Positions 33,767-64,000 of a DNA stretch of 64,000 nt are shown here, in pieces. Every line of letters starts with the position of its first letter. Positions within the stretch are counted from its first letter, which is position 1. This DNA comes from Trypanosoma brucei (Eukaryota): the NCBI GenBank assembly GCA_000002445.1, contig CP000066.1, positions 576,001-640,000 on the forward strand, in the 5' to 3' direction. The notes beneath the pieces were generated by a model that made no database searches, was not told the DNA's origin, and worked only from the letters and a program-made list of their open reading frames with translations. Position numbers and translations under genes: made by a program.

Positions 33767-33808
<42 letters not shown>

Positions 33809-33820
33809 GTGTGTGTGTGT
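33767..33820. repeat. Compound microsatellite (AT)13(GT)12
   Basis: Read directly: atatat... followed by gtgtgt... in the spacer after PEX10. Confidence 0.95.
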
Positions 33821-38433: not shown

Positions 38434-39702
<1,269 letters not shown>

Positions 39703-46434: not shown

Positions 46435-46815
46435 ATGCCACCAAAGAAGAGCAGCAATGCCAAAGCCGGCAAATCCGAAGCTGTCAGCGAAGTGAGCAAA
46501 ATTAATATGGATTATGTGCAATATGAACTTCCATCACCTGATATGGCTGTTGTGGAAAAATATATTGAAACGGCCAAAGCAAAAGCTCGCGCCTCATCTG
46601 CGCAACGAAGGCGGGAAGGCCGAAAGAGTTGTTGGAGGGCGGCGTCACCAAACATGTCACTTTGCAAAAAAATTCGTGGAGTGTTTTGTCCAAATATCTT
46701 TCAAACTCTGAAAGGACCTGTGAGGGATTTTGTGTTGGGATTTGTCGTTACTTTCTTCGTCATGTATGTATTTTTTGTGGCGTTGTATTTCGAAAAGGCG
46801 CCTTCCAAGCGATAG
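46435..46815 (+). CDS. Hypothetical tail-anchored small protein, 126 aa
   Basis: Basic N-terminus and a single C-terminal TM helix (FVLGFVVTFFVMYVFFVALYF). Isolated between 1-kb spacers. Confidence 0.4.
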   Translation: MPPKKSSNAKAGKSEAVSEVSKINMDYVQYELPSPDMAVVEKYIETAKAKARASSAQRRREGRKSCWRAASPNMSLCKKIRGVFCPNIFQTLKGPVRDFVLGFVVTFFVMYVFFVALYFEKAPSKR

Positions 46816-47856: not shown

Positions 47857-48054
47857 ATGCCTGAGACGCCACAGCGAAATGGATTCAAGCGTCCAAGTCT
47901 TGCAGCTAAATTATTCGGTGATGCGGATGTCGTTTATTCGAGAGAAACAACATCTCGACTAACGGATTTTGCGGGAACATTTTTAGTCGGATTTTTCGCG
48001 GTTTACTTCACAATTGCGGGATATTTACTTTATCGTGAGGCAGCGCTCTCGTAA
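47857..48054 (+). CDS. Hypothetical tail-anchored micro-protein, 65 aa
   Basis: Single C-terminal TM (FLVGFFAVYFTIAGYLLY). GC3-rich codons contrast with the AT-rich surroundings. The call is marginal. Confidence 0.3.
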   Translation: MPETPQRNGFKRPSLAAKLFGDADVVYSRETTSRLTDFAGTFLVGFFAVYFTIAGYLLYREAALS

Positions 48055-49139
48055 AAAATAAAAAATAATATAATAATAATAAATAAATAAATAAATAAAG
48101 GAGAAGAAGAGAAAAATAAAATAAAATAAAACGTGTCATGGCGATGTTGTTGGATATTATTATTATTACTATTTATTCCAACAATGAAGATGCACCCATA
48201 ACGATCAGTTGAAGGGAAGGAAAGTGTGAAAAATCAATCATTACACTACCTATTTAGACATAGGTTTGGAGGGGAGAGATCTTTTTTTAAAAAAAACAAA
48301 AAAAAAATCTCCCCGGGTCCCTTTTGTGTTCTTCCTTTTATACGTGCGGTGTGTTGCGCTGAGAACTCACTGAGAAGTGCGTGACTGCGTATTTAAAAAT
48401 AAAAATAAAAAAAACACCGTCACCTTCCCTCGGTATTTAGTTAATCATTATATTGCCATACCTGTTTTTATTTTATTTTATTTACTTACTCACTTTGATC
48501 ACAATGTAAGTTCTCGGGCCGGTGCCGTTTTTTTTTTGCAATTTTTGGTGTTATGATCTTCCATTCGTCCCTCTTTTTTATCTCCTTTTTTTTTCCTTTT
48601 TTTTTCCACTGCTTTCTCCGCCTACACACTTTTAAAAATGAAATAAAAATTGTGCAGCATTTTCGCGCAGAAAGTCAATGTGCTCCCTTTATAAAAGCTA
48701 AGAGAATGGGGGAGTGTTGCGTACGCTCATGCGTTTTTGTGAGGGTTAATGAGTTTTCATCCTTTCAAAACAAAAACACAAAAGGGAGAAAATAACAGGG
48801 ACAAAGGGGGGGAAAAAAGTAGCAATGTTTTGTTTATTGATAATCCGCTAATTTATCTTAACTGCGTTACGGAATATATGATATATATTTGTGTGTGTAC
48901 GCGTGCATGTGAAATATCCAACACTCATTGCGTCATTTTGAAATTTATACCTTCTTTCTTTTTTGTTTTCCTTAAAATAATTCCGCTCCGCTTGGTTATT
49001 GCTCTGAAAGCTCAAGCGGCGCAGCGGGGGGGCGACTTTCCGTTGTTGTTGCTGTTATTATTATTATTATTATTGCTATTGTTGTGTGTTGTTCTTTTTT
49101 TTTAAAAATAAATAAATAAATAAAAGGAAACAGCATTGT

Positions 49140-49898
49140 ATGCTCCGGTGTATACAATGTAATGCGGCGGTCTACCGAATTGTTCAGCCGGAAAACGAGG
49201 TGGTTGAGAAGTGTGGGACATGCGGTAGGCGGTGTGATAGGTATTATGAATTCTCTAACTGTCAAAAGTGGATAAGCATCACGTTGCTTGAGAAACCTGC
49301 ATGGATTCATGTGTTATTTAACAAAAAAGATATCCGCGCGACATTATTTTGCACAGCCCTCCTGTCACGACTTATTGAAGCGTACGTCGTGCGAACGAGT
49401 TTGGTGTATGGCGCCTTACGCATGCTTCGGTCTAAGGGACCGGTTTCTAACGTAAGTTCGGTTGCGACACTTCAGCTTTTCCGGAATGTGAATCCCAAAA
49501 TAGAACCGCTGATGGCGTATCAGGACACTTTGCCCAATATATTTATTTGTGCTTGTGGAGAATATTTGCTTTGCCTTTTGGTCACTGTTATATTTGCGCT
49601 TCATTCGTGGCGTCGTGGTGGCTCGGCTTTATGGGATGTTGTACTCACATGGATGACATGTGTTAATCTTGCCTATTCAGCGAAGTTGTGTTTCGTAGTG
49701 TTCCTTATTTGGCGCATTCCCATCGCATTAGTATCCCTGGTGGATCTTATCAGTCTCCTTTGGGCTGCTCGCGGTTTCAGTCTTGTGGAAAATAGATATC
49801 CACCATTATTTACATCTGTTGTTGTGCTGATTTGTACGGCAGCCACACGATATCTCTTCCGTAGTGTTACGCAGTGGAGTCCACAACTTCTGGTGTGA
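49140..49898 (+). CDS. ARV1: ARV1-family protein (sterol/lipid homeostasis)
   Basis: N-terminal zinc-ribbon Arv1 homology domain CIQCNAAVYRIV...CGTCGRRCDRYYEF...IHVLF, followed by multiple TM segments. Confidence 0.65.
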   Translation: MLRCIQCNAAVYRIVQPENEVVEKCGTCGRRCDRYYEFSNCQKWISITLLEKPAWIHVLFNKKDIRATLFCTALLSRLIEAYVVRTSLVYGALRMLRSKGPVSNVSSVATLQLFRNVNPKIEPLMAYQDTLPNIFICACGEYLLCLLVTVIFALHSWRRGGSALWDVVLTWMTCVNLAYSAKLCFVVFLIWRIPIALVSLVDLISLLWAARGFSLVENRYPPLFTSVVVLICTAATRYLFRSVTQWSPQLLV

Positions 49899-50647
49899 TC
49901 GAAATGAATGTGAATGTCTCTTTTTCCCATTGTTCTCGCCCTTTTGTAATCATATTTATATATTTTTTCTTGTTTTTTTTTGTATTCTTCCGTCCTCGGT
50001 CCGGTCGGTTACCACTGTAAATGTAACCTACAACTTTCCTTTCCTTTCCTTTCTGCTTTGGTTTGGTTTGGTTTGGCTTGGTTGCACCGAAAGCACTTTT
50101 CTACTTCTCCATCGCCGCAATAATTGTTTTTTGTGGTGTTTCCCGTTCATTCGGTATCAGCATCAGATGGGAACTTTGTCGCTGCTTCTTTTCTTTGTTG
50201 TGTACCTTCCTCTTCTCCACTATTAATTGCGGTGCCCTCTGATTTATTTGCTTCGTCGTGTATATGCTGATGTATGTATATATATATATATAGAAATATA
50301 TAAATATACATGTGTGTATATGTATATATTGGCCCTTTTTGTTTCAATTTATTTCTTCGTCGTCTTTTCATGTTTCGTTATTGTGCAAGTAGAAACACCC
50401 ACAGGTGTCTGACACTTAGGCATAACAGTGTAAAAAGGTGGGGATTAGTTACGGGTGGAAGAAGAGGAGGAAGTTGAGGAAAAGATAGCAACGAAACAAA
50501 AGCTAAAGCTAAAGCAAAAAAAAAAAAGAAGAGAAAACGATAGAAGGGAGAGTAAAAAAACGGAAAAAAAACGGGAAAAAGTTAAGAGAACAATCATAGG
50601 GCAATAAAATAAGGCCAGATTTTCGCACAGGTGATAAACAGGAAACA

Positions 50648-53539
50648 ATGGATGCGAAACTTGTGTTCTGTGCGCACTCGCTCAAGTTACCAACGCTGAG
50701 CATTCCCCCAGCTCTGTCAGTAGATAATGAAACCATCAACTTCAGATGTCCGGAACCTCTTGCAGAAGCTGGTTTCCCCGTTCCAAACGCATCATTTACT
50801 GCTGACGTGATGATGGAGCAACCGCAATCCCGCTCCATTTACCAGCGGGTGTTCGCAACAGCTGCACGGGATTTCGAAGGGCGTAAAAATCTGGTAGTTT
50901 TCAGCTACGGCGTGCGTTCCACACCGAAACGGCAGCTTATGTTTGGTTCGGAATCGGGTAGCGGTTATGCTGCGAAGATCATTGGCGATGTTGTGGATGT
51001 TGGTGCCACCAAAGGCATCTTCGCCATCTCTGCGTATGGTGTTGGTTCCTCAGAGCATCTCACCGACTTCACTGATGAGAATAACGAAATGGGAGTAATT
51101 GTAGAATCGGTGAAGGAGGGCCCGCGTGTGCGTATGGTTGGGCGTGTTCGTGTAACGTCATCGGAGGATGTGCGTTCCGTTTTTAACACAGTTACGAAGA
51201 ACTATCAAAAACATTTCGAGTCAGTACTCCGCGAGAGGCAACCAACAGCTGAGCTTGAAGCCCTTCCGCCATATATGCCTGAGTCAATGATTCTTCAGCT
51301 CTACCGTTATGATGATGAGGAAGCATTCAGCGAGTATGTGGAAGCGAACTCCATGACGTTTGTTGCACTGGGAGACTCGGAACGGCCTGTTCTTTGTGGA
51401 ATTGAAGAAGAAACTCAGCAGGAGTATGAAAAGACACAGAAAGTCCTTGCGTCAGCAGTAGGAATTATCTCCAGTATTCGCTGTAATCGTCTGCGCATTC
51501 CATTCGGCAAGTCGAAATTAAGTCAGCTCCTTCGCCGTGCATACAATGCCGAGAAGGGCAACCCCAACAACGGCTACAATGAGCCAACATCAACCGTTTT
51601 TATTATTCATGCCTTTACAGACGCTGTTTGGGCAGAGGAGTCATACCACTGCCTTTTACTCTCGCGACGAGTTAGCAGCGTTGTTGGCACGAGCAGCATC
51701 GGTTCCATTACGCGCGACCTCAGTGTCGATAAGTGGCGTTTGGATCAAGATATTATGGAGTTGCGTGATGAGCTTCAAATTGCGCGCACAGTGTATGACT
51801 ACAGGCCCTGTATATATGACCAACCGAAGCCAGTTCAGAATATCAGAGAGGAGGAACAGAAACGCATTAGCGCCATTGTTTCAAAACGGGAGGAAGCCCG
51901 TGAAAGGCAGCTGAGTTTGGTCCGCGAGCAAGCCAAGCAGGATGCTGATAAAATCATTAAGGATCTCGAAGCTCGGACGGGGACGACGCTCTCGGCGCTG
52001 GAGGCCTCCCTCGAGGCGAAAATGAAGGAAAACTCGGCGCTTCATGCGGACAGGGAAAAACGAATTCATGAATATGAGCAAACCTTAGAAAAGATTCGCA
52101 AAAAGAAGCAGGAGGAGGAATCCGCGTGCGAGAAGCTACGTGAAGAGATGCTCCAGCTTGAACAGGAACTTAGTGTTCGGCAAAACGCAATTGAGAGCAA
52201 GCAGAAGAATTTGGAAATGATAAAGCTGGATAAGTCAAAGGGCCGTGACGCGGTTATGCGTGAGCGACAGTCCATACAAGCGATGCGCAAAACGGTGCTA
52301 GAGGAGAGGCGGCGTCAGCGCAAACAGTGGATTAACCAAATAAAAGAAATCAACGCTAAGGTTATTGATCAGGTCCGGATGCTGGCCGAGGAACGGAAGA
52401 AAAACGGTGAGCAGCCCACAGCAAATGAAGAGGCTGCTGAAAAGGCAATCATCGCGGATGTGCGAACTATCGAGGAATACTTGCCAAAACTCATTTCACT
52501 TGAGGACGTTCCCGTGAATTTGGAGGAGACGGAAGCCATTCGCCGACAATTTGCGGATGTGTTTGCGGAAGAGAAAAAGACATATCTTGCGCGGATCGAA
52601 GAGGAGAAGGCGCGGAGAGAAAAGCTGGAGCGTGGCCTCGAAGTATATCGTCAGCGCCTACTCGACACATATCAAGCTAAGAAAAAGGAGAAGGTGCATG
52701 ACGCCATAACAAAAGAGCAACACCTCAGCTCATTGGTGGATCAAGTCATTACGTACTTGCGCAACGGTGTCCGAATGAGCAAAATTTCAAGCAAAGGAAA
52801 TATTCGCCGGCGGTTCTACTTCCTCTCCGAAGATTACAAACGCATTCACTCCTGTGAGATTGATAACCAAGGCGCGCCAATCAGCCGGAAGAAACCACCC
52901 GTCACCATATGGCTGAAAGATATAAAGAAAGTGGTTATTGGCGTATACACATCTTCATTTACAAACTTTAGCAGTGAGGCTCAGTTGGCGAAGACGCGTC
53001 AGGAGGCCGTTTCTGACAGCGGAACTTACCGTCAAGACCCAACGCAAAACATCACCTCAGCCAACCTTGGTTTGCATAATTACAGATCCTTTGCACTTCT
53101 GCTTCGTGGAGGTAAATCTCTGGAAGTTGTTTGCGAAACGGACAGCGACTGCGAGGCTTGGCTTGTTGCGCTCAAGCGACTCCTTCAAATAAAATCTCCT
53201 ATTGAGCGAATTCTTGAGGAAAGGATGAACGGCAATACGACGAAAGAATCACCAAGTAACACACATGAAGGTGCTGTTGATATAAAATGGGGTGGTTCAC
53301 TTGATATACACAACATGCGCGGGTTTGTTTCCCTGTCGTCTGAAGAAGCCACGCTGTGTAGTGAAAACCACATCCCGCCCGCTTTGTTCCTTCGGATGAA
53401 GCAAGAAATGGCAGAAAAGGCGGAAAGGAATACCATCACGATTTATGATGTCCGTGTTTCTTCCGGTCTTGACTTATTCCGCTCAGGGAAGCTTTATGAT
53501 TTCTTATGCGAAAAGAGAGTCATACCGCTCCCGTACTGA
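50648..53539 (+). CDS. Large coiled-coil protein with C-terminal PH-like domain, 963 aa
   Basis: Extended heptad-rich Lys/Glu/Arg/Gln region (about 51850-52700). C-terminal RRRFYFLSEDYKRIHSCEI...ALLLRGGKSLEVVCETDSDCEAWLVALKRL fits a PH-domain pattern. Confidence 0.65.
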   Translation: MDAKLVFCAHSLKLPTLSIPPALSVDNETINFRCPEPLAEAGFPVPNASFTADVMMEQPQSRSIYQRVFATAARDFEGRKNLVVFSYGVRSTPKRQLMFGSESGSGYAAKIIGDVVDVGATKGIFAISAYGVGSSEHLTDFTDENNEMGVIVESVKEGPRVRMVGRVRVTSSEDVRSVFNTVTKNYQKHFESVLRERQPTAELEALPPYMPESMILQLYRYDDEEAFSEYVEANSMTFVALGDSERPVLCGIEEETQQEYEKTQKVLASAVGIISSIRCNRLRIPFGKSKLSQLLRRAYNAEKGNPNNGYNEPTSTVFIIHAFTDAVWAEESYHCLLLSRRVSSVVGTSSIGSITRDLSVDKWRLDQDIMELRDELQIARTVYDYRPCIYDQPKPVQNIREEEQKRISAIVSKREEARERQLSLVREQAKQDADKIIKDLEARTGTTLSALEASLEAKMKENSALHADREKRIHEYEQTLEKIRKKKQEEESACEKLREEMLQLEQELSVRQNAIESKQKNLEMIKLDKSKGRDAVMRERQSIQAMRKTVLEERRRQRKQWINQIKEINAKVIDQVRMLAEERKKNGEQPTANEEAAEKAIIADVRTIEEYLPKLISLEDVPVNLEETEAIRRQFADVFAEEKKTYLARIEEEKARREKLERGLEVYRQRLLDTYQAKKKEKVHDAITKEQHLSSLVDQVITYLRNGVRMSKISSKGNIRRRFYFLSEDYKRIHSCEIDNQGAPISRKKPPVTIWLKDIKKVVIGVYTSSFTNFSSEAQLAKTRQEAVSDSGTYRQDPTQNITSANLGLHNYRSFALLLRGGKSLEVVCETDSDCEAWLVALKRLLQIKSPIERILEERMNGNTTKESPSNTHEGAVDIKWGGSLDIHNMRGFVSLSSEEATLCSENHIPPALFLRMKQEMAEKAERNTITIYDVRVSSGLDLFRSGKLYDFLCEKRVIPLPY

Positions 53540-55197
53540 GCGGTGAAGGAAATATGAGAGTGTTATCAGGAGCCAACAGAATTTGTTTCTGAACTTTACC
53601 TTCCCTTCCTCTTTATTATTTCCCCTTATTTCAGTGATGATTCTGCTGCCGTCGCATTGTCCCACCCGCTACGTTCAATTATTTAGTAAATAGTTGGGAA
53701 GGGTGTCCACGTTTTTTTTTCAAGTTCTTTTTTTTTTTTTGGAACTTCCGGTCATATCCGAAATGGGCAGGGAGGTAGAAAGAGGAGGAAAGAGCAATAT
53801 AAACTTGGTTCCAGTCTGCGTTGCGTGAAATCCCCACGTTTCGAAACTGAAATAATATGTTCGAATGTTATGCTTAATAGTAACAATCACAATAATAATA
53901 ATAATACGTCTCACATCATCTTTCTTTCTTTCTTTATATTTAAATTTTTATTTGACAAAGAAAAAAGGATTATGGGTTTATAGTTAGGAAAAAATGACTA
54001 TATTTCCCCAATAACTGAGTTAAGGCGCATACCGCAGCAACATGCGAAACCCAAGTTTCAGTACCACTCAAATATACATTCATTAGTTAAAAATTTTTTT
54101 GCTTGCGGAATGAAGCTCGTTAGCTCACGCAAAAGGTGATGAAGTGGAACCGGCAATTTTTACAAAAAAAAAGCGTTATTGCTTTAATGACACAAGGGTG
54201 GGTATTCTTCGTAAAAACATAACGGCGTGATATGGGGTCAAATATGCGGACAGCCGCATATTTTAATTTTCGCACATGAAAAAAGCTCACCCGCAGCCAC
54301 ATCTCACTAGGGAAAGTTAGGAAGGGTAAAGTGCTCCCGCAAACGATGTGACGGAAGGATCAGAAATGATGCATTTGAAGATGGGGGCTGCCGGATTTTA
54401 TTATTTTGGGCCGGGGGAATACTCTTGCAAATGTGTGGAACGGGGGAAAAGGCAACACGAGGGGAGGGTTTTTTTTTAAAAAAAAGTGTCCGGGGAACAG
54501 GAATTTAATACGCTGTGCGGAGCATGGTGAAATTGGCAGAGGATGGTTTCATGGGAAGGACAGAGGTAGAATTCGGGCAAAACTGCTTGGAAGAAACTAA
54601 GCGAGGGTGCAATTTGTTAGAAATATCTAAATAAAGCGAACGTGGCGGATTGGGGGAAAGGGCGAGAGGAAACGCAAGAAACGCGAGCGCTTCTGTCAAA
54701 TACGGAAATACAGGAAATTGGAAGCAGGGCCAAGTTATCCGGTCAGATGCATAAAGACGCAACTCCCTCGTAATAATCCTCTGGAGAATACCATTAGGAA
54801 GTTTTATTTTAAAAAAAAAAAACTTTCGAAGTTCAACGCAAGATTCTTCGGAAGTACCGCAAAACTAAAACCGTGCCTACACTCGCTCCAGTCGACAAGA
54901 CGCTTTTAGCTAGTTTCTCAGTTGAGGTTGCACCTTTTGCTCCCAAGCATACTTGTTGTTTTGCTTTATCTGAAGAGATATAAAAAAAATACCACGCATC
55001 CGCAAAATGCGTCTGAACCAAACCGATCTTTTATGTATCGTATCAACTAGCCGATGAGGTGCGTGAGGAAACTTCCTTCATAGAATTGCTAAAACAACAG
55101 GTGTGTGGGGAGGAAGAAAGTGTTGTATAACAGTTTTGCATCGTTAAGACTCCGTGGGCACGTACCTGAACCAAACGTTAGGATTTAAGGGGTGTGC
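53540..55197. terminator. Convergent strand-switch region (probable Pol II transcription termination zone)
   Basis: Plus-strand cluster ends at 53539 and minus-strand cluster ends (3' side) at 55198. AT-rich with no credible ORF. No tRNA found by eye. Confidence 0.65.
54155..54400 (+). repeat. About 245-bp repeat, copy A (inverted partner at 63150-63395)
   Basis: The reverse complement of 54155-54400 aligns with 63150-63395 at roughly 90% identity by manual comparison. One example is atcatttctgatccttccgtcaca[c/t]tgtttgcgggagcactttacccttcctaactttccctagtgagat. Confidence 0.85.
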
Positions 55198-56385
55198 TTA
55201 AAAAACTAGAAAAAATAACTTAAGTGGTTCTGGGAGGCGGTTTACACCGCTGGAGGTGAATAATCTTCGTATGGAAGTCACGCATTCGCTCCCATTCCAT
55301 TCGCACCGCGGCTTCTGTTCCAGGCAAGTTACCTTGCTTTCGAAACCAGAGCATCCTCTTTTAGAGGACGTAGTCGGTTTTTTCCCCTCCAGTCCATTAT
55401 CAGTATTATTGGATTCGTCCTTTTCTTTTTCGCTTGAATTGTTTGGGACAGGTCGTGCCCCCCTCTTCAATTCGTTTACTTGGTTTTGAATCTTCACGAG
55501 GTACTCCTCGGCTTGGATCAGTTCTTCCATTCTGGTTGCAGCTTCTCGCAACTTTAGATACCACGAAATTGTTGGCGTGCTTTCATTGACGTGTCTTGGG
55601 AGATATATTACGCATCGGCCATGGCCAACCTCGGTGCTTCCGTCGCAGCCGTTGTGTAAGTCGGCGCCGCGCGCGCCCAGTAAGTTTCGTGAATCCGATG
55701 AAGAGTCCGGTATTTCCTGGAGTTCGCCAAGGAAGAAAGCGACCGCCTCTGAGAGCGCTTGAAGCGGCCGAGTTTTCTCTCTCCTCACGTTGCTGCACTT
55801 GGGATGGAGCAAATTCCAGTGATCAGGAGAATTTCTCTGGGGTACCCATGATCCTACATAAGTGGTGTTGCATCCATCACAGCAAACCGCGCTGCCGCCT
55901 TTGCCTTCGCTGGATGCTGCACAGATGCACAGTAAATCAAGCGCCAGCGCATCACCCGCTTTATTTCCGGGCTGGCCGCCAGCTCTTCCACATAACTCCG
56001 ACCTCCCACCCCGCGTGCGCCCGACCACCACCTGTTTATGACCGTTGCCGTACAGCGCTTCTGTTAAATTTTTTCTGATAGCTGATAAGGCCCGGCCGTT
56101 CCATAAATCACCGTTCTCTTCCTTATATGTTTTCGCTTTTAGTTTAAGTTCCTCAAGTTTTTTAACATTTTCTTCGGGCGCTTCGGCCTCTCCCTGAATT
56201 TCGTCTTCTGTTTCCTTAACCTTGCGCTCCAGATCCTCCGGTGTTTGTGTATCCAGCGCAAGATTTACAAAACCACACAGCGCTTCGAATTCCTTTCCAT
56301 TCACAATGTTGTTTTCATGCGCCTTTGAATTGACGCAGATATGTTGCAGCGTTACCACCGCAACAAACACGATGTAACTCCTCAT
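55198..56385 (-). CDS. Predicted secreted/GPI-anchored surface glycoprotein, family paralogue 1 (VSG-related-like)
   Basis: Signal peptide (MRSYIVFVAVVTLQHICVNS) and C-terminal hydrophobic GPI-type tail (LKLFFLVF). Shares EFEALC and ALALDLLCIC motifs with the three downstream paralogues. ATG 56385 chosen over the ORF-track start 56553. Confidence 0.6.
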   Translation of the reverse strand: MRSYIVFVAVVTLQHICVNSKAHENNIVNGKEFEALCGFVNLALDTQTPEDLERKVKETEDEIQGEAEAPEENVKKLEELKLKAKTYKEENGDLWNGRALSAIRKNLTEALYGNGHKQVVVGRTRGGRSELCGRAGGQPGNKAGDALALDLLCICAASSEGKGGSAVCCDGCNTTYVGSWVPQRNSPDHWNLLHPKCSNVRREKTRPLQALSEAVAFFLGELQEIPDSSSDSRNLLGARGADLHNGCDGSTEVGHGRCVIYLPRHVNESTPTISWYLKLREAATRMEELIQAEEYLVKIQNQVNELKRGARPVPNNSSEKEKDESNNTDNGLEGKKPTTSSKRGCSGFESKVTCLEQKPRCEWNGSECVTSIRRLFTSSGVNRLPEPLKLFFLVF

Positions 56386-56831
56386 CCCCAACAATTTCGT
56401 ATATGCCTTTTTGTTCACAATGATGTCACCTGTCTCCCCAGAAAATTCGAAAGATGACGTACCAAACTTAGCGAAAAATACACACATACCGCGTAGGTGA
56501 GGATCATGACGAATAAAAAGCTCTCTCGGCTTCTCTCCCCAGCACACACACAAAAAATTGTTACATAACGTTTCAGCTCCCTTGAGAAGTCATAGCATCA
56601 CAAGAGAGCTCCACATGGAAGCCACCGCTGCTATCTCGATAGCAGCATCAAAAAGCCAGACACAAATTCCAAAAAAAGAAGGTGATACCACCTTAATTAT
56701 TCATCCAAAGAAAAACGAATTCATATGCGATTGTTAATAAACCCACATATTGTTAAAATGAAACACACGTACACATAAAAGCAAAATATAAAAAAGATAC
56801 TGCACGACAATGTTGGTAGCGTACCAGTAAA

Positions 56832-58202
56832 CTAAGACATACAAAAAAGGGATAGAATCATTAATGTAAAAATATCAGTTGTTATATCTATATAGTTGAA
56901 TCCATTATTATTTACTTCAGCATTGCCACCTTCACCATCATCCTGACCTCGGTTACTTCGCCATAGCTCAGCATCACCACCTAGCTTCACCTCAAGAAAT
57001 ATTTCCTCTGCCTCATGTTGGTATTCTTCCAATTCGTGAAGATGACTGTCAGACTCTTTGGCATACTTTGCCATTTCTTGTAGTTGCTCGGTGGCGTTAG
57101 TAAGATGGTTGTACCAAGGGATCCCACCATTTTCAAGTGTGTAGTTGTAGCTGACACATGTGAATCCAGCAGTATGACCCGTGCAGGTGCGATTCTCGTT
57201 GTTTAATGTTTTCACATAACCAAGAATACCCTTCACCTGATACTTATCCTGTTCCATTTCCACTAACGCATCGAACTGAGCTAGCGCACTCTTTAAGGTT
57301 TTCACATTAGATGCAATATTCTTGTACACGCAAGCTTTACTAATCACATCCCATGCCTCAGTATGGTTGTATTTTATATTTTCAGGCTTGCAGGTATTAT
57401 AGTTGCTCGGACAATACTCAGCCATCATAGTCCAACTACCATTTTTAGGTCTCCTTATTGCATCCTTACAAGGACAGTCATATCCACTGTATATGTTTTC
57501 ACTACTTGAGCCAGTATCCATTTGGTATACGCGTGTCTGTCGCTCTTCCTTCTTTTTTTCTATAGCCTCTCCCACACATAGGCAAAAGAAGTCATTAATT
57601 AGTGTCTTTCCAACTAGCTTGTCTCCGTAAGAACCACAGCTTGCGTCCGCATTGTAGACACTATTGAACAACAGTGATTTGTTTCCCCTCATGGCTTCCT
57701 CCAGAGTTTTATTCTCATTTCTTGCCACATCCACAGCGTCGCCATACACAGCCCTCAGCATATTTTCTTCAGCAGAGCGACTTGCATTCAAGGCTTTTGT
57801 CCTATTCACCTCTATCTGCTCCTTAAGCTTTTTCGCCTTCTCAAATAGTTTCTTCATCTCCTGATATGCTGTCGTGCTGTTAGATGAATTGTTCGAGCCC
57901 TTATTGCCACCAGCAGCTTCTGCCTCACTGACCATTTCCTCCAAATTCTTCAGAATCTCTCCTTCCTTCTCACGATTCTTAAAGGAGGGTTGCGGGGCCT
58001 CTGCTTGCGTGATTCGGTAAATCTTGCACAGTGTTTCGAACTCACCAACGTTGTGATGTTTTTCATCTGCATCGACGGTCTCCATAATCCTATCCCAGTC
58101 AAGCATATCAGTTCTCCATCGATATTCTGCCATATCACCCTGAGAGGAAGGAGATAAAACAACCACAAGCATCCCAACGGCAAACACTGTTTCGTGTCTC
58201 AT
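56832..58202 (-). CDS. Predicted secreted/GPI-anchored surface glycoprotein, family paralogue 2
   Basis: Signal peptide (MRHETVFAVGMLVVVLSPSSQG), motifs EFETLC and LINDFFCLC, multiple N-glycosylation sequons, and C-terminal hydrophobic tail (IFTLMILSLFCMS). Confidence 0.6.
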   Translation of the reverse strand: MRHETVFAVGMLVVVLSPSSQGDMAEYRWRTDMLDWDRIMETVDADEKHHNVGEFETLCKIYRITQAEAPQPSFKNREKEGEILKNLEEMVSEAEAAGGNKGSNNSSNSTTAYQEMKKLFEKAKKLKEQIEVNRTKALNASRSAEENMLRAVYGDAVDVARNENKTLEEAMRGNKSLLFNSVYNADASCGSYGDKLVGKTLINDFFCLCVGEAIEKKKEERQTRVYQMDTGSSSENIYSGYDCPCKDAIRRPKNGSWTMMAEYCPSNYNTCKPENIKYNHTEAWDVISKACVYKNIASNVKTLKSALAQFDALVEMEQDKYQVKGILGYVKTLNNENRTCTGHTAGFTCVSYNYTLENGGIPWYNHLTNATEQLQEMAKYAKESDSHLHELEEYQHEAEEIFLEVKLGGDAELWRSNRGQDDGEGGNAEVNNNGFNYIDITTDIFTLMILSLFCMS

Positions 58203-59418
58203 CGTGATTTTGCCTCTACAATCATCAGTCAAAAGGAGGGAAAAAAATCTTATTATCACGTTCATTACTGTTATTGACAAACACAACAAACATGGAGATA
58301 CATCAATGTATCGAAGTTAACAAGTGCCCGACACAAGTCAACCGAAACAGTATCCAACAAAACAGGAAGCACATCCCAATACATACAGTTAGATGAGTGT
58401 ATTCTTTCAAGCTGGACATCAACGTTAGACTTCCTCACAACTGCGGTATTCTCCTTTTCGTTACACCATTTCTCCTAATTTCCTCCCCAAAAAATCTGCT
58501 TTATTTGATACCATGCCAGTATATCCAATTTTCCAACTGAGTTCCTCTTGCACTCCCTTGATTTCCTCAATAATAAGCTGATCCATTCTCTTAATGAAGA
58601 CTTGCACCTTTATGCCATGTTTTTTTCCACATCCTTCATTGGATCTGTTAGTTTAAGTTGCCATTTTATGGTCTTATTTGCTAATAGATTACGTGCTTAA
58701 TTCGCACGTGTTACCTTTATCCAATGCACACAACTCTGCTGCTGAACTCCACTCAGCATATCCTCCTCCACTCATACGCATACTCACAAAACTTTTTGTT
58801 TACCTATTCTTGACCATGCACAGTTTCCTGCCTTCCATTTTCTTAAGCCATACACTAGAAAAGATAAAAGTTGTATTTTCAAAACACCATCTCGGATACT
58901 TATGCTCACTATTGAGGCCCTTGATTATATGGTGACATGATGGAATATTATGGTATTTTCCAACACAAAAAAGTCCCAGAATAATTAGTGACCTTCCCTG
59001 TCAGCACCCTCATTTAGATCGTTCACCTCATTAACCAGCCACCATCCTTATAGATACGCTGGTAGAAAAAAACGGAAGTTATGCACGTTATCGCCCATCC
59101 CCTCAACGAATTCTATCCACCCTTACCCCACACAGGTTTTTTGCATAAGAAACGACAAACAAGAAACAAAACTACTCTTGTGAGCACAAAACCAAATATT
59201 TCTTCCTTACTTCACATGCAGAAAGAATTAACACACCCCACTACCCTACAACACAAATGGTGGAGGGACAGCCATAGTCACTACCACTCACAATTAAGAT
59301 AACCCAGACAGGGAAACTCCAGATAAAGAAATGCCCAGTTACGAGAAAGATCCTAGCGCGCACACGTAAAGATATTTCATTTATTATGGAACAGGGAGAA
59401 TATTAATGAAAGTACTTT

Positions 59419-60393
59419 TCAGATGGTAAAATTAGTACTCTTCATATTATCAATGTTATTCGTGCTGAACTGCAGCGAAGTGAAATTCCTATGGATATCG
59501 TTGAAGTAGCTCTGCAGTAAAGTGATATTGGCCATCATATCCAGGAGTTCAGGAGGTGCTTTGCCAGAAGTAAAAGGTTCGATAAGAGGGTCAAATATCT
59601 CCTCCACGTAAATTTGGAGCTGAAAAAAAGCGGGGCCGTTCTCACGCCAGTTTATTAAGCCAGTTGAATTCTTCACCGCACCACCCTTATATAAGTTGTC
59701 ACGCGGTAAGTTCAAGCATTTGCTCACAGATCCAGATCCAGTTAAAACATCAATTTGAAGGCAACCTCCCCTGTATTTTTGGAGAGTGATCTCGTTCACA
59801 CCGGTTAATAAAGGACATGTCTGATCAACACATACGACTGGGAACCCCCTGACACCTTTCAGCGCTCCTTTCTTGCACTCGGGTCCTTCATCATTGCTCA
59901 CGGCTTTAACGTCATCCCACACAGTTCTTGCGATCTCAGCAATAGCTGTGTAATATTTATTTGATGTTATGAGGGCACCAGGTATTGCATTCCTCACTGC
60001 CCTCACGCTTTCATTAACCTCAGCAAATAATCCACCTGCCTTAGCAACAAGATCTCCCATTGCATTTCCATAAGATATAAGGTTTTCCAATTTATCATTT
60101 TCCTCTACCATTACACTGCTAATAACACTCAAATATATAACACTTTCGCCTGTTTTCCCTTCCATGTCATCCAGCATACGAGACGCATTTGCGTATACCT
60201 CCTCATTCAAAAAAAGCTTCCTCTCGCCATCTGTATATAGTTTGTTTAAGGCATCTGAAAGACATTTGAGGTAACATACGGATTGGTTTAAGTTTGTGCC
60301 CTTGTCATCATCTATTGATGTGCAATAACTTTCTTCTGCCACTCCAAAGGTCACAAAAAAAAAAACAACCAATCCTACAATCTTAATTTTCAT
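59419..60393 (-). CDS. Predicted secreted protein, family paralogue 3 (no obvious GPI signal)
   Basis: Classical signal peptide MKIKIVGLVVFFFVTFGVA directly after a pyrimidine tract. Cys pattern and N-glycosylation sequons are present. The C-terminus is hydrophilic. The ORF-track upstream extension to 60684 is judged non-coding. Confidence 0.5.
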   Translation of the reverse strand: MKIKIVGLVVFFFVTFGVAEESYCTSIDDDKGTNLNQSVCYLKCLSDALNKLYTDGERKLFLNEEVYANASRMLDDMEGKTGESVIYLSVISSVMVEENDKLENLISYGNAMGDLVAKAGGLFAEVNESVRAVRNAIPGALITSNKYYTAIAEIARTVWDDVKAVSNDEGPECKKGALKGVRGFPVVCVDQTCPLLTGVNEITLQKYRGGCLQIDVLTGSGSVSKCLNLPRDNLYKGGAVKNSTGLINWRENGPAFFQLQIYVEEIFDPLIEPFTSGKAPPELLDMMANITLLQSYFNDIHRNFTSLQFSTNNIDNMKSTNFTI

Positions 60394-61732
60394 TACTAAA
60401 CAATTACATTTGACAAGAGGAATGAAAAAAACACATACACATCGCCACACAAAACCAATGAGTGTCACAAATGTATAATCCCAATACCCACAGTGTTTCA
60501 TACACATAACATTGAACCACATAATAAATATTGCTACAAGAGACGTTAAACCCAACAGAATATGATGCTCCTTCTTCATTGTCAATCCTCCTTCATCCGT
60601 CACATCGTCATCATCCTCACTTCCATTGCATTTCCTCCCACTCTCCTTGAAATATTTACACACAATCAGGTTTTGAGATAGCAACTCTTTCAGTTTATTT
60701 TCATGCCCAGTAAAGGAAACAAAGATCAGCTCTACATCACCGTACCGTTTGGTGATACTCCCATATCATTTTGTGACTAAATTGTAGCTGTTGATAAGCT
60801 AGGGCACTATATCACTGAACATTAGGGTGACAACACCATCCCTATGGTAGTTAACGAAACCTCCGGTAGTTCCCACTATGAAAGTTCCAACTCCTGCAAC
60901 CGCAGCACCTTACGTACCCATGATCCAGCAATTGATGGTTGCTATCGGTTGTAAATTCAATTGGTTGATTAGCTGTGTAATTATTTGTGCAACCAATATA
61001 CCATCATTTGGCATATCTTCAGTGAAAGAGAAATTACACATGTTAGGAGATTCCGCTACTCTGTGCTTATGTTAATTACTTTAACATTCATTTCCTGAAG
61101 AGGCGGCTTTCTCCTTCACAAGACAACAACCATTTGCTTTAGCATTTGTTTGTCTAAAAACCATTACCAGATCCTTCAACACTTGTCCAATTGACAATGA
61201 TGCATTCACAACATGATTAGACACTCTTATTTCGTTTAAATAACTTGCGTCTATTACCTGTCCAGGTTCATCTGTATTCTTCATTATATTCCTCAACCTC
61301 TACGTTATCGCTTTCCATGCCCTTCCCTTTACATCATAGTGATATCACCACATCAGAAACCCATTCAACATTTACATAGCCTCCGATTGTCATCTTCAAA
61401 ACACTAACACTCACAGTCCCCAAGGCACAACTGAAGCTAAATACCGTTTGTGTCCCTTGACGGACACCTCAACTCAGTGCCAGGGTCTAGCACCCTGCTC
61501 AGGTAAGAGAAAAAAAGCGACAGCATCCTACTCCATTAGGATTAAGTTCAGACGGAAAATCCAAGGCTTCAATTCACAATGGAGCACACACCGTAAACGT
61601 TACAGGACAAGCATTATTCTTGGAAATAAAATAGGCACAGTTGCTGTGCCGTCAACTATACCAAAAAGAAATCCACTATTATTACCATTAGTGTTAGTAT
61701 TGGCGCAGTGGAGCCACATATGATGTTGTGTG

Positions 61733-62845
61733 TCACAGCAGAAAGAGCAAAAACACCACCAACGGTGAAATAGCCTGAGCGACATTTTTCGGCCGAAGTG
61801 GCTGGTGTGAGGGTTGGAGTGAGTGATTGGTTCTTGTTTCACCAAGAGGAACCAAGTCAGGGTCGGTGGTGCTTTGTGTAGCTGCACTTGTGTTGGGTGC
61901 CATTGGTGTATTGCCATCAGTTGCCGTTGAGGGAGATTGCTTGGGACGTTGCTCGGGAGATGGATCCTCCTCTGGTTGTACCTTTATTTCCGGGGGTGAC
62001 TGACGGGGTGGTGAGCCTCTTGTTGGAATAGGCGGTTCCCTCTGCTCCTGCGGTGGCATTTTGTTGACTTTTTGTGCATTTTCCTTTTTAGGGGTTTTCA
62101 ACCTTTTGACAAGGTCTTCTAGTTGTGTCAACCACTCAATTTTGACTTGATTTGCTCCTCCGCCTTCCATTTTATAGAAAACACATGGGGCGTTATTTGC
62201 ACTGCCAGACCCTCCACAAGATTTGGTGATCGGCTCCCGCCCGTGTCCGAAGCGCTTAGTTTCCCTCTCTGTTGTTTTCTCGGTCATTTCATTCAGTTTT
62301 TTCCTAAGATTTTGGACGGTTGTGGTTAATGATTCAAAACCGATGCTTTCTATATTAATTTGCTCGGTGCACTTTTGCTTGATTTTCCCCCAACTTTCTT
62401 CGGCTCTGTCCTTGTTTCCCCAACTTTCGGCAGGATCATACCACGCATTGGCTTCGTAGCACAGATTTTTTTGGTGGTCACCGTTTCCGCTGGGTCTGCA
62501 AAGACACAGAAGGTCCAGCGCTAACGCTTTGCCTCCAAATCCGCCTCCGAATATGCTGGTGTAGCCACAGTCAGCTTCTCGTTTTTCTTTTCCAGTCCAA
62601 TTAAGGGAGCCATCGCTGTCACTACCGTACAAGACTTTCATCGCGGAACTGTCGAAGTCGTTTGCGACCTCGGCTGTGAGTCTCTCTTTCTCCACCCACT
62701 CGTGTATTCTCAGTGTCAAATTTAAGAAACTGCAGAGCACGTCAAACTCCCTTTGGTTCAACGTATTTTCTATCTCTGCGGCCGGCACGCTCAACCCTGC
62801 CGCCTTCCAAACCACGCACAGCATAGTCACTAATATTTTCCACAT
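61733..62845 (-). CDS. Predicted GPI-anchored surface glycoprotein, family paralogue 4, with Pro/Ser/Thr/Gln-rich stalk
   Basis: Signal peptide (MWKILVTMLCVVWKAAG), motifs EFDVLC and ALALDLLCLC, a roughly 70-aa mucin-like stalk (PPQEQREPPIPTRGSPPRQSPPEIKVQPEEDPSPEQRPKQSPSTATDGNTPMAPNTSAATQSTTDPD) and hydrophobic tail (ISPLVVFLLFLL). Confidence 0.6.
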   Translation of the reverse strand: MWKILVTMLCVVWKAAGLSVPAAEIENTLNQREFDVLCSFLNLTLRIHEWVEKERLTAEVANDFDSSAMKVLYGSDSDGSLNWTGKEKREADCGYTSIFGGGFGGKALALDLLCLCRPSGNGDHQKNLCYEANAWYDPAESWGNKDRAEESWGKIKQKCTEQINIESIGFESLTTTVQNLRKKLNEMTEKTTERETKRFGHGREPITKSCGGSGSANNAPCVFYKMEGGGANQVKIEWLTQLEDLVKRLKTPKKENAQKVNKMPPQEQREPPIPTRGSPPRQSPPEIKVQPEEDPSPEQRPKQSPSTATDGNTPMAPNTSAATQSTTDPDLVPLGETRTNHSLQPSHQPLRPKNVAQAISPLVVFLLFLL

Positions 62846-63149
62846 CGCCTTCCTAAGCATCAATAAAAAAAATGAAACAGATAGTAGAGAAATCTCCAAT
62901 GAGAGGGGCAGGGACACTTTTAAAGGGTGAAAGTTTAACCCTATTAGGTATTTCATGAAACATCAGCAGAGGTCAACCAGAGAAGATATGAAAGCTCATA
63001 TCTCCATAGACTACATTTATTTTTTTAAAAGTCTCTTTACCATCCCAAGACTAGTTTGGCACTTAAGTTTACTTCTGGTTTTGATACTTGCTGCCATTGT
63101 CTTAACCTATCTGCCTTAAAGTTTTGATAACATCAAGGGTTTCCGCTCT

Positions 63150-63395
63150 TTTTTGGGGGCCTCCATCTTCAAATGCATCATTTCTGATCCTTCCGTCACA
63201 TTGTTTGCGGGAGCACTTTACCCTTCCTAACTTTCCCTAGTGAGATGTGGCTGCAGGAGAGCTTTTTCATATGTGGAAATAAAACCACGCGGCTATCCGC
63301 ATATTTGACCCCATATCACGCCGTTATGTTTTTACGAAGAATACCCACCCTTGTGCCATTAAAGCAATAACGTTTTTTTTGTAAAAATGCGATTA
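63150..63395 (-). repeat. About 245-bp repeat, copy B (inverted relative to copy A)
   Basis: See copy A. Similarity ends abruptly at both edges (gtaaaaat | divergent). Confidence 0.85.
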
Positions 63396-64000
63396 ATTAT
63401 TAACATGACTATTGAAAACGCTATTGTGATGTTGAACATGGTTTACCGTTTCAATTCAATTATTTCACCACAACAATAGCCAAATAATACACGATCTACC
63501 AAACAAACGCAACAGAAAGGCATTCACCAACTTCAGAAAAAAAATTTATTCAAACGGTTTTCAAACAGTACATATCCTACCATTCCCACCCAAAACACCT
63601 CAGAAACTGTTGATTTTCAAGGTAAATCACAAATCGAAACATAAGCAGCAAACTACCCCACCCATACAAATACACGAGAATAAATGTGGTATAACAATAC
63701 CAGATAAGCTCGGTGACCGTATCCTACACCAAAATAGGTATTAATAACAATGTGAGGCTTGGGCACAAAATATGAAGGGCCATTGATTCCGCCTTTTTTC
63801 TTAGGGCAGAGGAGTTCTGTTCCCTTTCATTGGTGATGAGGCTATTATTATCACCCCAAAACCAGTTTTTTTTATCACTGCCTCTCCATGTGGATATTTT
63901 CCTTGTCTGGCGACCCGGCACTCACTTTTTTCTGCTTTTCTTAGGTGATGTTAATTGATTGCCTTACAGCCTATACCATTTATCTATTCACGAACGTTAC

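What the first reader, a model, noticed from the sequence alone, without database searches (positions are those of the whole stretch)
54155..63395. Four-gene surface-protein array bracketed by inverted 245-bp repeats next to a convergent strand-switch region
Two copies of a roughly 245-bp sequence (54155-54400 and, as reverse complement, 63150-63395, about 90% identical) flank exactly the minus-strand block that encodes four paralogous secreted/GPI-anchored proteins. Everything else in the window is conserved housekeeping. Long inverted repeats around a cell-surface gene family suggest an inserted or invertible accessory segment, or a recombination substrate for family diversification.
Basis: seen in the sequence. 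Interest (0 to 1): 0.65.

Follow-up and report, generated by a model that had tools for sequence, protein, structure and literature searches.

The report
Old inverted duplication flanking trypanosome surface genes
A real but short and partly decayed inverted repeat of non-coding DNA flanks four already-annotated, Trypanosoma brucei-specific surface-protein genes at a place where transcription converges; it looks like the scar of an old rearrangement, not a mobile element or an active switch.

Summary
Window 54155-54392 and the reverse complement of 63155-63389 are about 236 bp, 93% identical and 8.76 kb apart. They are the only significant repeat in the 64 kb.

The window is T. brucei brucei TREU927 chromosome 3. 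The enclosed genes are Tb927.3.2500, an ESAG-annotated VSG_B-fold gene, an ESAG1-family gene, and the VSG-related gene Tb927.3.2540. They sit at convergent strand-switch region cSSR 3.3, a published case of base J/H3.V-dependent silencing.

Both arms and the same orientation are present in gap-free sequence of T. b. gambiense DAL972 and T. b. equiperdum IVM-t1. Arms group by position rather than by strain, so the duplication predates these lineages, and no flipped copy was seen.

The repeat has sharp edges. It has no target-site duplication, no 3' poly(A), no coding potential, no RNA-family match and no stable fold. No further copy occurs in about 230 kb of trypanosomatid DNA I could fetch.

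The surface-gene island continues at least 9 kb beyond the right arm, so the arms do not delimit it. The four genes are not close paralogues.

Best reading (about 0.45): a locus-specific inverted duplication made during an old inversion or repair event, with occasional short gene conversion between arms since. Genome-wide copy number could not be tested. Interest is low to moderate.

The parts
54155..54392 (+). Left arm of the inverted repeat (non-coding). It lies in the convergent gap, about 615 bp after the stop codon of the PH-domain gene.
   Evidence: conserved at the same place in L002, L003 and L004
63155..63389 (-). Right arm of the inverted repeat (non-coding). It lies about 200-310 bp upstream of the Tb927.3.2540 start codons and downstream of the Tb927.3.2550-family tandem array, inside the minus-strand transcription unit.
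   Evidence: position relative to the array from L005
53540..55197 (.). Convergent strand-switch gap between the last plus-strand gene and the last minus-strand gene. It corresponds to cSSR 3.3 and probably to CTU6 in the literature.
   Evidence: ORF layout; GC-skew sign change; PMC4721609; PMC3447711 supplement (exact coordinate correspondence not verified)
55198..56385 (-). g1 = Tb927.3.2500 (XP_843844, 395 aa). VSG_B-domain protein with a signal-like N-terminus and a hydrophobic C-terminus. Annotated 'T. brucei spp.-specific' in DAL972.
56832..58202 (-). g2 = XP_843845 (456 aa), annotated 'ESAG, putative'. It has a weak VSG_B fold; 'ESAG2-like' is my inference. It is mosaic between strains.
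59419..60393 (-). g3 = XP_843846 (324 aa), ESAG1-family gene (GRESAG1-type, chromosome-internal). It is frameshifted in DAL972.
   Evidence: Tb427.03.2530 is annotated as an ESAG pseudogene
61733..62845 (-). g4 = Tb927.3.2540 VSG-related gene. It is annotated as 407 aa from 62956 in TREU927, but that ATG is absent in DAL972 and IVM-t1. The likely start is 62860 or 62845.
62969..63158 (.). Hyper-divergent 190-bp patch that abuts the inner edge of the right arm. It is about 21% diverged in TREU927 vs DAL972/IVM-t1, while the arm itself is 2-2.4% diverged.
50648..53539 (+). Context: conserved kinesin-like PH-domain protein (XP_843843), the last gene of the plus-strand unit and the last gene with synteny in other trypanosomatids.

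Best explanation
The two arms are a locus-specific inverted duplication of about 236 bp of ordinary non-coding spacer DNA. They are a structural scar, not a gene, a mobile element or a switch.

The most likely origin is a single old rearrangement in the T. brucei stem lineage. Staggered breaks, or a template switch during repair, at one end of an approximately 8.8-kb cassette (VSG-related gene, ESAG1-like gene, ESAG-annotated VSG_B gene, VSG-like gene) were filled in and rejoined with the cassette inverted. That leaves the broken spacer copied at both ends in opposite orientation.

The cassette lies at the meeting point of two converging polycistronic units. Such an inversion therefore only moves the genes from the tail of one unit to the tail of the other, and each gene still faces the same way as the unit that transcribes it, so it is tolerated.

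Since then the arms have diverged by about 7%, with occasional short gene-conversion patches between them.

Shown here: the existence, limits, age relative to the subspecies and uniqueness (within the DNA I could reach) of the repeat; the absence of coding, RNA or retroposon hallmarks; and fixed orientation in three assemblies.

Inferred: the inversion itself and its mechanism.

From the literature: the enclosed genes are nearly silent in bloodstream forms and are derepressed when H3.V and base J are lost. Nothing ties that silencing to the arms.
For: Repeat and limits. Sharp edges and unrelated flanks on both sides. This pattern fits a discrete duplicated segment.

No other copy is in the window. 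A profile search of about 190 kb plus 42 kb of other ESAG1/VSG_B loci found none either.

Functional and retroposon hallmarks are absent. There is no tRNA or Rfam match at gathering or E<=1. Fold z-scores are -1.6, +1.2 and -0.6 and disagree between arms. Stops occur in all frames and frames are not shared between arms. By direct reading there is no target-site duplication and no 3' A-tail.

The duplication predates strain divergence. L-L identity is 95.3-99.6%, R-R 96.6-99.6% and L-R 91.6-94.0%, with 8 fixed arm-specific differences. Both arms and the same orientation are present in gap-free DAL972 and IVM-t1 sequence.

The arms are not under visible constraint. TREU927-DAL972 divergence is 4.0% (left arm) and 2.0% (right arm), against 1.5-1.7% in the left-side non-coding flanks.

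The site is rearrangement-prone and a synteny break. T. vivax has a retroelement plus an unrelated surface gene after the PH gene, and T. cruzi has RHS genes. In L. tarentolae and T. theileri the PH gene is 7-9 kb from a chromosome or scaffold end.

The staggered-break model predicts exactly this signature, inverted duplication of non-repetitive sequence at both ends of an inverted segment (PMC1885836).
Against: No outgroup shows the cassette in the opposite orientation. Its genes are T. brucei-specific, and T. congolense DNA was not retrievable (no contig on record). The inversion is therefore inferred only from the repeat geometry.

The T. brucei genome could not be searched as DNA with these tools, so additional copies of the 236-bp unit elsewhere cannot be excluded.

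From my own knowledge, not tested here: T. brucei lacks canonical non-homologous end joining. Rejoining would have to be by microhomology-mediated joining or a replicative template switch.

The 190-bp hyper-divergent patch that ends exactly at the right arm's inner edge is not explained by this model.
Confidence: 0.45

Rival explanations
1. The two arms are fragments or members of a dispersed repeat family (RIME/ingi/DIRE-type retroposon remnant or another low-copy interspersed element) that happen to lie in opposite orientation near this cluster.
For: Synteny breaks and strand-switch regions in trypanosomes accumulate retroelements. The T. vivax counterpart of this site carries an ingi-like element with endonuclease and RT ORFs, and the T. 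cruzi counterpart carries RHS genes. The sharp edges are also what element copies would show. Genome-wide copy number could not be measured.
Against: No 3' poly(A): the A-run is at the 5' end in one reading and becomes a T-run in the other. No target-site duplication at either copy. No coding remnant. No similarity to the T. vivax retroelement locus or the T. cruzi RHS loci, and no further copy in about 230 kb of trypanosomatid sequence, including three other ESAG1 loci. No ORF call resembling it exists among 1.84 billion protein representatives, apart from one chance bacterial hit.
Confidence: 0.2
2. The arms are a live recombination substrate. Homologous recombination between them periodically inverts the four-gene cassette (a flip-flop), changing which transcription unit reads it or driving diversification of the genes.
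For: There are signs of sequence exchange between arms. At core columns 65 and 77 both arms share one allele in TREU927 and the other allele in IVM-t1/DAL972. TREU927's two arms are identical over columns 64-77, whereas the right arms of the other strains differ at 4 sites. The arms evolve as fast as or faster than most neighbouring spacer, as conversion would cause. The enclosed genes g2 and g3 are mosaic between strains.
Against: The orientation is the same in three independent gap-free assemblies. The arms are only about 236 bp and 6-8% diverged, with 8 fixed differences clustered in the centre, so no recent full-length exchange has occurred. The mosaicism of g2/g3 is explained better by a paralogous ESAG1/VSG_B cassette elsewhere, 74-78% identical over 2.8 and 1.45 kb. 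g4 has essentially no family to diversify with.
Confidence: 0.08
3. The arms are cis-acting elements that bound or help silence the cluster. They could be chromatin or termination boundaries met in the same sense by both converging polymerases. Alternatively they could form the stems of a long hairpin RNA when read-through transcription crosses both, feeding the nuclear RNAi pathway.
For: Each arm has the same orientation relative to the transcription that approaches it. The enclosed genes are derepressed on loss of H3.V/base J at cSSR 3.3. T. brucei inverted repeats and convergent units are known siRNA sources. The chromosome 3 CTU6 interval at 626.6-634.3 kb yields a few DCL2-dependent siRNAs.
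Against: Tb427.03.2580 and .2590, which by gene numbering and the DAL972 gene order lie beyond (upstream of) the right arm, are derepressed too. Termination on that side is therefore set several kb before the arm. The arms show no sequence constraint relative to their flanks. CTU6 is among the weak siRNA loci, with 227 reads. A published genome-wide inverted-repeat survey lists seven IRs of 422 bp or more and 99-100% identity, none on chromosome 3.
Confidence: 0.1
4. The repeat is an assembly artefact.
For: None found.
Against: The repeat is present with lineage-specific substitutions in TREU927, DAL972, IVM-t1 and (left arm) T. equiperdum OVI. There are no gaps in L003/L004.
Confidence: 0.01

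Closest known systems
Inverted duplications at inversion breakpoints (staggered-break model; Ranz et al. 2007, PMC1885836)
   Same: Non-repetitive sequence is duplicated in inverted orientation at the two ends of a segment. The edges are sharp and the flanks unrelated. The copies then decay by substitutions and small indels.
   Different: That model was established in Drosophila with outgroups that show the un-inverted order. No outgroup is available here, and T. brucei would need a joining pathway other than classical NHEJ (my own knowledge).
The seven long inverted repeats of T. brucei that produce siRNAs (Tschudi et al. 2012, PMC3447711)
   Same: Same organism. Paired inverted copies separated by a few kb, in or near regions transcribed on both strands.
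   Different: Those are 422-10,011 bp and 99-100% identical, which suggests active homogenisation, and they are strong siRNA sources. This one is about 236 bp, 93% identical and not in their list, and the chromosome 3 convergent unit gave few reads.
Chromosome-internal VSG-related/GRESAG clusters at strand-switch regions silenced by base J and H3.V (Jensen 2009 PMC2771046; Jackson 2013 PMC3605285; Reynolds 2014/2016 PMC4150806, PMC4721609)
   Same: The enclosed genes are exactly such a cluster. Tb427.03.2500/2530/2540 are listed as derepressed in the H3.V knockout, cSSR 3.3 is a figure example, and VR genes typically sit at internal strand-switch regions.
   Different: None of these papers, in the text and supplements searched, mentions an inverted repeat around the cluster.
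RIME/ingi/DIRE retroposon fragments
   Same: Short non-coding repeats common at trypanosome synteny breaks, of a size similar to half a RIME (size from my own knowledge).
   Different: No poly(A) tail, no target-site duplication, no coding remnant and no other copy found.
Leishmania low-copy repeated sequences that mediate amplicon formation (Ubeda et al. 2014; from my own knowledge, not read here)
   Same: Low-copy inverted repeats flanking gene groups in a trypanosomatid genome, which could serve as substrates for rearrangement.
   Different: Those are mostly SIDER-derived, genome-wide and shown to generate linear amplicons. No amplification or SIDER relationship is seen or tested here.

Membership tests
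RIME/ingi/SIDER-type retroposon fragment | Many dispersed genomic copies | not testable with these tools
   No T. brucei genome is searchable as DNA. Partial check: no further copy in the window or in about 230 kb of fetched trypanosomatid loci.
RIME/ingi/SIDER-type retroposon fragment | 3' poly(A) tail | tested here: not met
   The only A-run (8-12 A) is at the start of the unit in the A-rich reading and becomes a T-run at the end in the other reading.
RIME/ingi/SIDER-type retroposon fragment | Target-site duplication flanking each copy | tested here: not met
   The 10-12 nt on either side of each arm are unrelated, by direct reading. The flanks score no better than shuffles.
RIME/ingi/SIDER-type retroposon fragment | Conserved 5' signature (about 77-79 nt) or similarity to ingi ORFs | tested here: inconclusive
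   No reference sequence was available. There is no similarity to the ingi-like element in T. vivax L006 or to the T. cruzi RHS loci, and no coding remnant.
Inversion-breakpoint inverted duplication (staggered breaks) | Non-repetitive sequence duplicated in inverted orientation at both ends of one segment, with sharp edges | tested here: met
Inversion-breakpoint inverted duplication (staggered breaks) | The segment is inverted relative to the ancestral order in an outgroup | not testable with these tools
   The enclosed genes are absent from T. vivax, T. cruzi, T. theileri and Leishmania. No T. congolense contig was on record.
T. brucei siRNA-producing long inverted repeats (Tschudi 2012) | Arms of 422 bp or more with 99-100% identity | tested here: not met
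   About 236 bp and 93.1% identity against Table 3 of PMC3447711.
T. brucei siRNA-producing long inverted repeats (Tschudi 2012) | Abundant Argonaute-bound small RNAs from the arms | not testable with these tools
   Literature only: chromosome 3 CTU6 gave 227 reads in wild type, with no arm-level resolution.
Invertible DNA segment (flip-flop between inverted repeats) | Both orientations occur | tested here: not met
   The orientation is the same in TREU927, DAL972 and IVM-t1, all gap-free. This is only three genomes, with no population data.
Invertible DNA segment (flip-flop between inverted repeats) | Arms kept near-identical by repeated exchange | tested here: not met
   L-R identity is 91.6-94.0% with 8 fixed arm-specific differences. 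Only one short patch looks exchanged.
Chromosome-internal VR/GRESAG cluster under base J/H3.V control | VSG_B-fold and ESAG-family genes at the distal end of a polycistronic unit next to a convergent strand switch | tested here: met
   Pfam VSG_B in three genes and ESAG1 in one; identities from exact matches; layout.
Chromosome-internal VR/GRESAG cluster under base J/H3.V control | Low expression in wild type and derepression on loss of H3.V and/or base J | not testable with these tools
   Literature: Tb427.03.2500.2530 and .2540 are up 1.6-, 2.7- and 11.9-fold in the H3.V knockout (PMC4721609 supplement).

The most novel reading that the evidence does not exclude
The repeat is the footprint of an inversion that moved a four-gene, expression-site-like cassette (VSG-related gene, ESAG1-like gene, ESAG-annotated VSG_B gene, VSG-like gene) across a convergent strand-switch region, from the tail of one polycistronic unit to the tail of the other. 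The site corresponds to an ancestral chromosome end. If this is general, 'tail-swapping' inversions at convergent regions would be a specific, architecture-permitted route by which trypanosomes reshuffle and silence surface-gene cassettes. The leftover arms could still act as conversion or re-inversion substrates, or as a read-through hairpin source.
Probability: 0.12. Interest if true: 0.5.

Novelty: new member of a known kind. Interest (0 to 1): 0.25.

Why it matters
The gene cluster is already annotated and has been used as a textbook example of base J/H3.V-dependent termination inside a transcription unit. The inverted repeat around part of it was not mentioned in any source I could search, including a published genome-wide survey of T. 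brucei inverted repeats.

If it marks an inversion, it gives a dated, sequence-level example of how gene order changes at convergent strand-switch regions without breaking polycistronic transcription. It would also show how T. brucei-specific surface genes came to lie in a silenced compartment.

If it is only one pair of a dispersed repeat, it has no special significance.

Either way it is a small structural feature with no demonstrated function, and the practical consequences are limited.

Tried and rejected
1. Structured RNA or tRNA-derived element: Rfam at gathering score and at E<=1, ARAGORN and single-sequence folding of both arms and both strands were all negative.

2. Protein-coding remnant: six-frame translation shows stops in all frames and no frame shared by the arms. 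tblastx against all held DNA gave nothing meaningful.

3. Indirect copy-number check through spurious ORF calls: exact look-up of seven arm ORFs found none in 15 billion proteins. A full HMMER scan of 1.84 billion representatives with the 79-aa left-arm ORF gave one hit, a 2249-aa repetitive bacterial-type surface protein. I judge this a chance match.

4. Literature search for the arm sequence itself: no paper contains any of five 16-20-mers.

5. Extended decayed homology beyond the arms: none found.

6. Association of the unit with other ESAG1 or VSG_B loci: absent from T. equiperdum L001, IVM-t1 L011 and DAL972 L012.

7. TREU927 itself could not be fetched by exact-protein look-up, so the sequence beyond the window came from DAL972 (L005).

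8. T. congolense synteny: the orthologue has no contig on record.

9. Telomere-repeat relics in the convergent gap: none in the window.

10. The self-BLAST 'palindrome' at 33766-33797 is only a (TA)n(TG)n microsatellite.
Full report
**1. Observation**

The repeat finder on 50000-64000 reports two abutting inverted pairs: 54159-54283/63263-63387 at 90% and 54280-54388/63159-63267 at 96%. A BLASTN of the whole window against itself finds one significant non-trivial hit, 54156-54388 vs 63388-63159, 93.1% over 233 bp, E=3.5e-93. The only other hit is a (TA)n(TG)n microsatellite at 33766.

From the alignments and the raw sequence, the arms run 54155-54392 and 63155-63389 with an 8762-bp spacer. They differ by one internal 1-nt indel and a variable A-run. 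The 500 bp inside and outside the arms align no better than shuffled sequence, so the edges are sharp.

**2. What the locus is**

The ESAG1-family ORF is 100% identical to a T. brucei brucei TREU927 protein on a 1,653,225-bp record, which I take to be chromosome 3. Exact look-ups identify the other genes:
- PH-domain gene: XP_843843.
- g1: Tb927.3.2500 (XP_843844).
- g2: XP_843845, annotated 'ESAG, putative'.
- g3: XP_843846, ESAG family.
- g4: XP_843847, 'VSG-related', i.e. Tb927.3.2540.

Pfam gives VSG_B for g1, g2 and g4 and ESAG1 for g3. Among themselves the three VSG_B proteins share only 23-28% identity at E of about 1e-4 or worse, and g3 matches none of them. g1, g2 and g4 have signal-like N-termini and hydrophobic C-termini. 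g3 lacks the hydrophobic C-terminus. 'Four paralogous GPI-anchored proteins' is therefore too strong.

Plus-strand ORFs run from about 11.7 kb to 53539. The four genes are on the minus strand and the GC skew flips at about 55 kb. The left arm therefore lies in a convergent strand-switch gap.

**3. What is already published about it**

Reynolds et al. 2016 use 'cSSR 3.3' (chromosome 3, 617-670 kb) as an example of transcription termination inside a polycistronic unit. Their supplement lists Tb427.03.2500, .2530 (ESAG pseudogene in strain 427), .2540 (VSG-related), .2580 and .2590 as one unit. These are derepressed in the H3.V knockout and further on base J loss. The wild-type to H3.V-knockout changes are:

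| Gene | Fold change |
|---|---|
| .2540 | 11.9 |
| .2580 | 7.5 |
| .2530 | 2.7 |
| .2500 | 1.6 |

(.2590 also in Reynolds 2014).

Other published points:
- Jensen et al. 2009 note that VR genes typically sit at chromosome-internal strand-switch regions.
- Jackson et al. 2013 place VR genes and ESAG1 as T. brucei-specific, and describe T. brucei-specific signal-peptide families arrayed in tandem next to strand-switch regions.
- Tschudi et al. 2012 surveyed the genome for inverted repeats and list seven (422-10,011 bp, 99-100% identical), none on chromosome 3.
- Their convergent unit CTU6 (chromosome 3, 626.6-634.3 kb) gave only 227 small-RNA reads.

The gene cluster is known. In everything I could search, the repeat is not.

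**4. Comparison within the T. brucei group**

Using the PH-domain protein as an anchor I fetched three orthologous regions:
- L004: T. b. gambiense DAL972.
- L003: T. b. equiperdum IVM-t1.
- L002: T. equiperdum OVI, whose contig ends inside g2.

Window 50000-63500 is collinear with L003 (97.4%) and L004 (95.3%). Both arms are present in the same places and orientation, with no assembly gaps.

Arms group by position across strains:

| Comparison | Identity |
|---|---|
| Left vs left | 95.3-99.6% |
| Right vs right | 96.6-99.6% |
| Left vs right | 91.6-94.0% |

Eight arm-specific differences are fixed, seven of them clustered in core columns 105-136. The duplication therefore predates the split of these lineages and has not been homogenised.

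There is nevertheless a patch (core columns 64-77) where TREU927's two arms are identical to each other, while the right arms of the other strains differ at four sites. At columns 65 and 77 both arms carry one allele in TREU927 and the other allele in IVM-t1/DAL972. I read this as at least one short inter-arm conversion tract. With seven sequences it is suggestive only.

TREU927-DAL972 divergence is 4.0% in the left arm and 2.0% in the right arm, against 1.5-1.7% in the left-side non-coding flanks. This gives no sign of purifying selection on the arms.

**5. The island is larger than the repeat-bounded block**

L005 (DAL972, 10 kb beyond g4) shows the minus-strand unit continues. It contains a tandem array with a period of about 1520 bp that encodes one 250-aa and three 219-aa proteins with signal-like N-termini and hydrophobic C-termini. 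It also contains a 149-aa ORF and a 305-aa cysteine-rich, acidic protein with the same end features.

The array matches the description of array 13, Tb927.3.2550: unit of about 1536 bp, four copies in both subspecies, present only in T. brucei (Jackson 2007 and 2010). The right arm lies between this array and g4, inside a transcription unit and not at a strand switch.

**6. Outgroups**

T. vivax keeps the upstream genes and the PH gene (66%, 48% and 71% protein identity). It then has an ingi-like retroelement and an unrelated 232-aa putative surface gene on the plus strand before the first minus-strand gene. In T. cruzi the Arv1-PH pair is followed by an RHS gene, and the unit is duplicated.

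In L. tarentolae the PH gene is about 9 kb from the end of an 887-kb record, with a histone H4-like gene last. In T. theileri it is about 7 kb from a scaffolded (TTAGGG)4 fragment near a scaffold end.

None of these loci contains homologues of g1-g4 or of the repeat. The site is therefore a synteny break. I infer that it is a former chromosome end, and that the genes on the T. brucei side are lineage-specific.

**7. What the repeat is not**

- It is not a known RNA and not a tRNA.
- It is not a stable fold. The z-scores are -1.6, +1.2 and -0.6 and the predicted structures differ between arms.
- It is not coding.
- It lacks retroposon hallmarks: no 3' A-tail and no target-site duplication.
- It is not associated with three other ESAG1 loci.
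- It is not an artefact.
- It is not the strong near-identical type of inverted repeat that yields siRNAs.

Genome-wide copy number remains untested because no tool here searches T. brucei DNA.

**8. Best explanation**

A discrete, non-repetitive, about 236-bp spacer segment is present once at each end of an 8.8-kb segment, in opposite orientation and with sharp edges. This is the signature that the staggered-break model predicts for an inversion (PMC1885836).

At a convergent strand-switch region such an inversion is architecturally harmless. The cassette leaves the tail of one unit and joins the tail of the other, still facing the same way as the unit that transcribes it. I therefore favour an old inversion or repair event in the T. 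brucei stem lineage, followed by decay and rare short conversion between arms (confidence about 0.45). The inversion itself is inferred and not shown.

Rivals:
- Dispersed element: 0.2.
- Cis-acting boundary or hairpin source: 0.1. Genes upstream of the right arm (.2580, .2590) are co-derepressed and the arms are unconstrained, which counts against it.
- Active flip-flop: 0.08.
- Artefact: about 0.

**9. Other things seen**

- g2 and the g2-g3 spacer are mosaic between strains: 15-16% diverged in TREU927 vs DAL972, and 4-6% vs IVM-t1.
- The OVI contig breaks inside g2.
- The g3-g2 pair has a 74-78% identical copy on another IVM-t1 chromosome, a plausible type of conversion donor.
- g3 is frameshifted in DAL972.
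- g4 has only one distant paralogue, at 40% identity.
- A 190-bp patch that abuts the right arm's inner edge is about 21% diverged between TREU927 and the other two strains. This is unexplained.

**10. Verdict**

The repeat is a real, conserved, previously unremarked inverted duplication in a well-known silenced surface-gene cluster. It is most likely a rearrangement scar. It is a new member of a known kind, of low to moderate interest.

Noticed in passing
window 62969-63158: A 190-bp patch directly abutting the inner edge of the right arm is about 21% diverged between TREU927 and DAL972/IVM-t1, which are identical to each other there. The arm next to it is only 2-2.4% diverged. The cause could be an old haplotype or ectopic conversion; no donor was found.
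   Followed up: partly
window 56832-59418 (g2 and g2-g3 spacer): Strain mosaicism: 15-16% divergence in TREU927 vs DAL972 but 4-6% vs IVM-t1, within otherwise 1-2% diverged DNA. The g2 protein is only 77.6% identical in DAL972. The T. equiperdum OVI contig ends inside g2.
   Followed up: partly
L011 5786-10507 (T. b. equiperdum IVM-t1, CM010678.1) vs window 56815-61290: A paralogous copy of the ESAG1-like plus VSG_B-fold gene pair and their spacer lies on another chromosome. It is 78% identical over 2.8 kb and 74% over 1.45 kb, arranged as if in tandem units. It is a possible conversion donor type for g2/g3. The inverted-repeat unit is not part of it.
   Followed up: partly
L004 18810-19780 (DAL972 orthologue of g3): The ESAG1-family gene is split into two frames with an internal stop in T. 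b. gambiense and has no gene call there. It is intact in TREU927 and IVM-t1, and annotated as a pseudogene in strain 427 per PMC4721609.
   Followed up: partly
window 62845-62956: The ATG at 62956 that gives the annotated 407-aa Tb927.3.2540 is ATA in DAL972 and IVM-t1. A pyrimidine-rich stretch lies inside the 'N-terminal extension'. The real start is probably 62860 or 62845, where a signal peptide begins.
   Followed up: partly
L005 885-8611 (DAL972; beyond window position 64000): Tandem array with a 1520-bp period, about 3.75 units at 98.5-99.5% identity, encoding 219-250-aa proteins with signal-like N-termini and hydrophobic C-termini (Tb927.3.2550 family, T. brucei-only). A further 305-aa cysteine-rich, acidic protein with the same end features lies upstream. 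None has a Pfam match.
   Followed up: partly
L009 (T. theileri) and L010 (L. tarentolae): The PH-domain gene orthologue lies 7-9 kb from a scaffold or chromosome end, and a (TTAGGG)4 fragment is scaffolded next to it in T. theileri. The T. brucei convergent region therefore probably marks an ancestral chromosome end or fusion point.
   Followed up: partly
L006 14467-21123 (T. vivax): Directly after the PH gene, T. vivax has an ingi-like non-LTR retroelement (endonuclease- and RT-like ORFs) and an unrelated 232-aa cysteine-rich putative surface protein on the plus strand.
   Followed up: no
L007 5519-22889 (T. cruzi): The RHS-Arv1-PH gene unit is tandemly duplicated with a period of about 10.6 kb.
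   Followed up: no
window 9393-11741: A divergent strand-switch region: minus-strand ORFs run up to 9393 and plus-strand ORFs start at 11741, with a GC-skew sign change at about 10-11 kb.
   Followed up: no
window 38000-50000: A markedly AT-rich stretch (GC 0.34-0.41 against 0.45-0.50 elsewhere) with several A/T-rich microsatellites at 45.9, 47.1, 48.05 and 50.3 kb.
   Followed up: no
window 33766-33820: A (TA)n followed by (TG)n microsatellite. It accounts for the only other 'inverted' self-hit in the window.
   Followed up: yes
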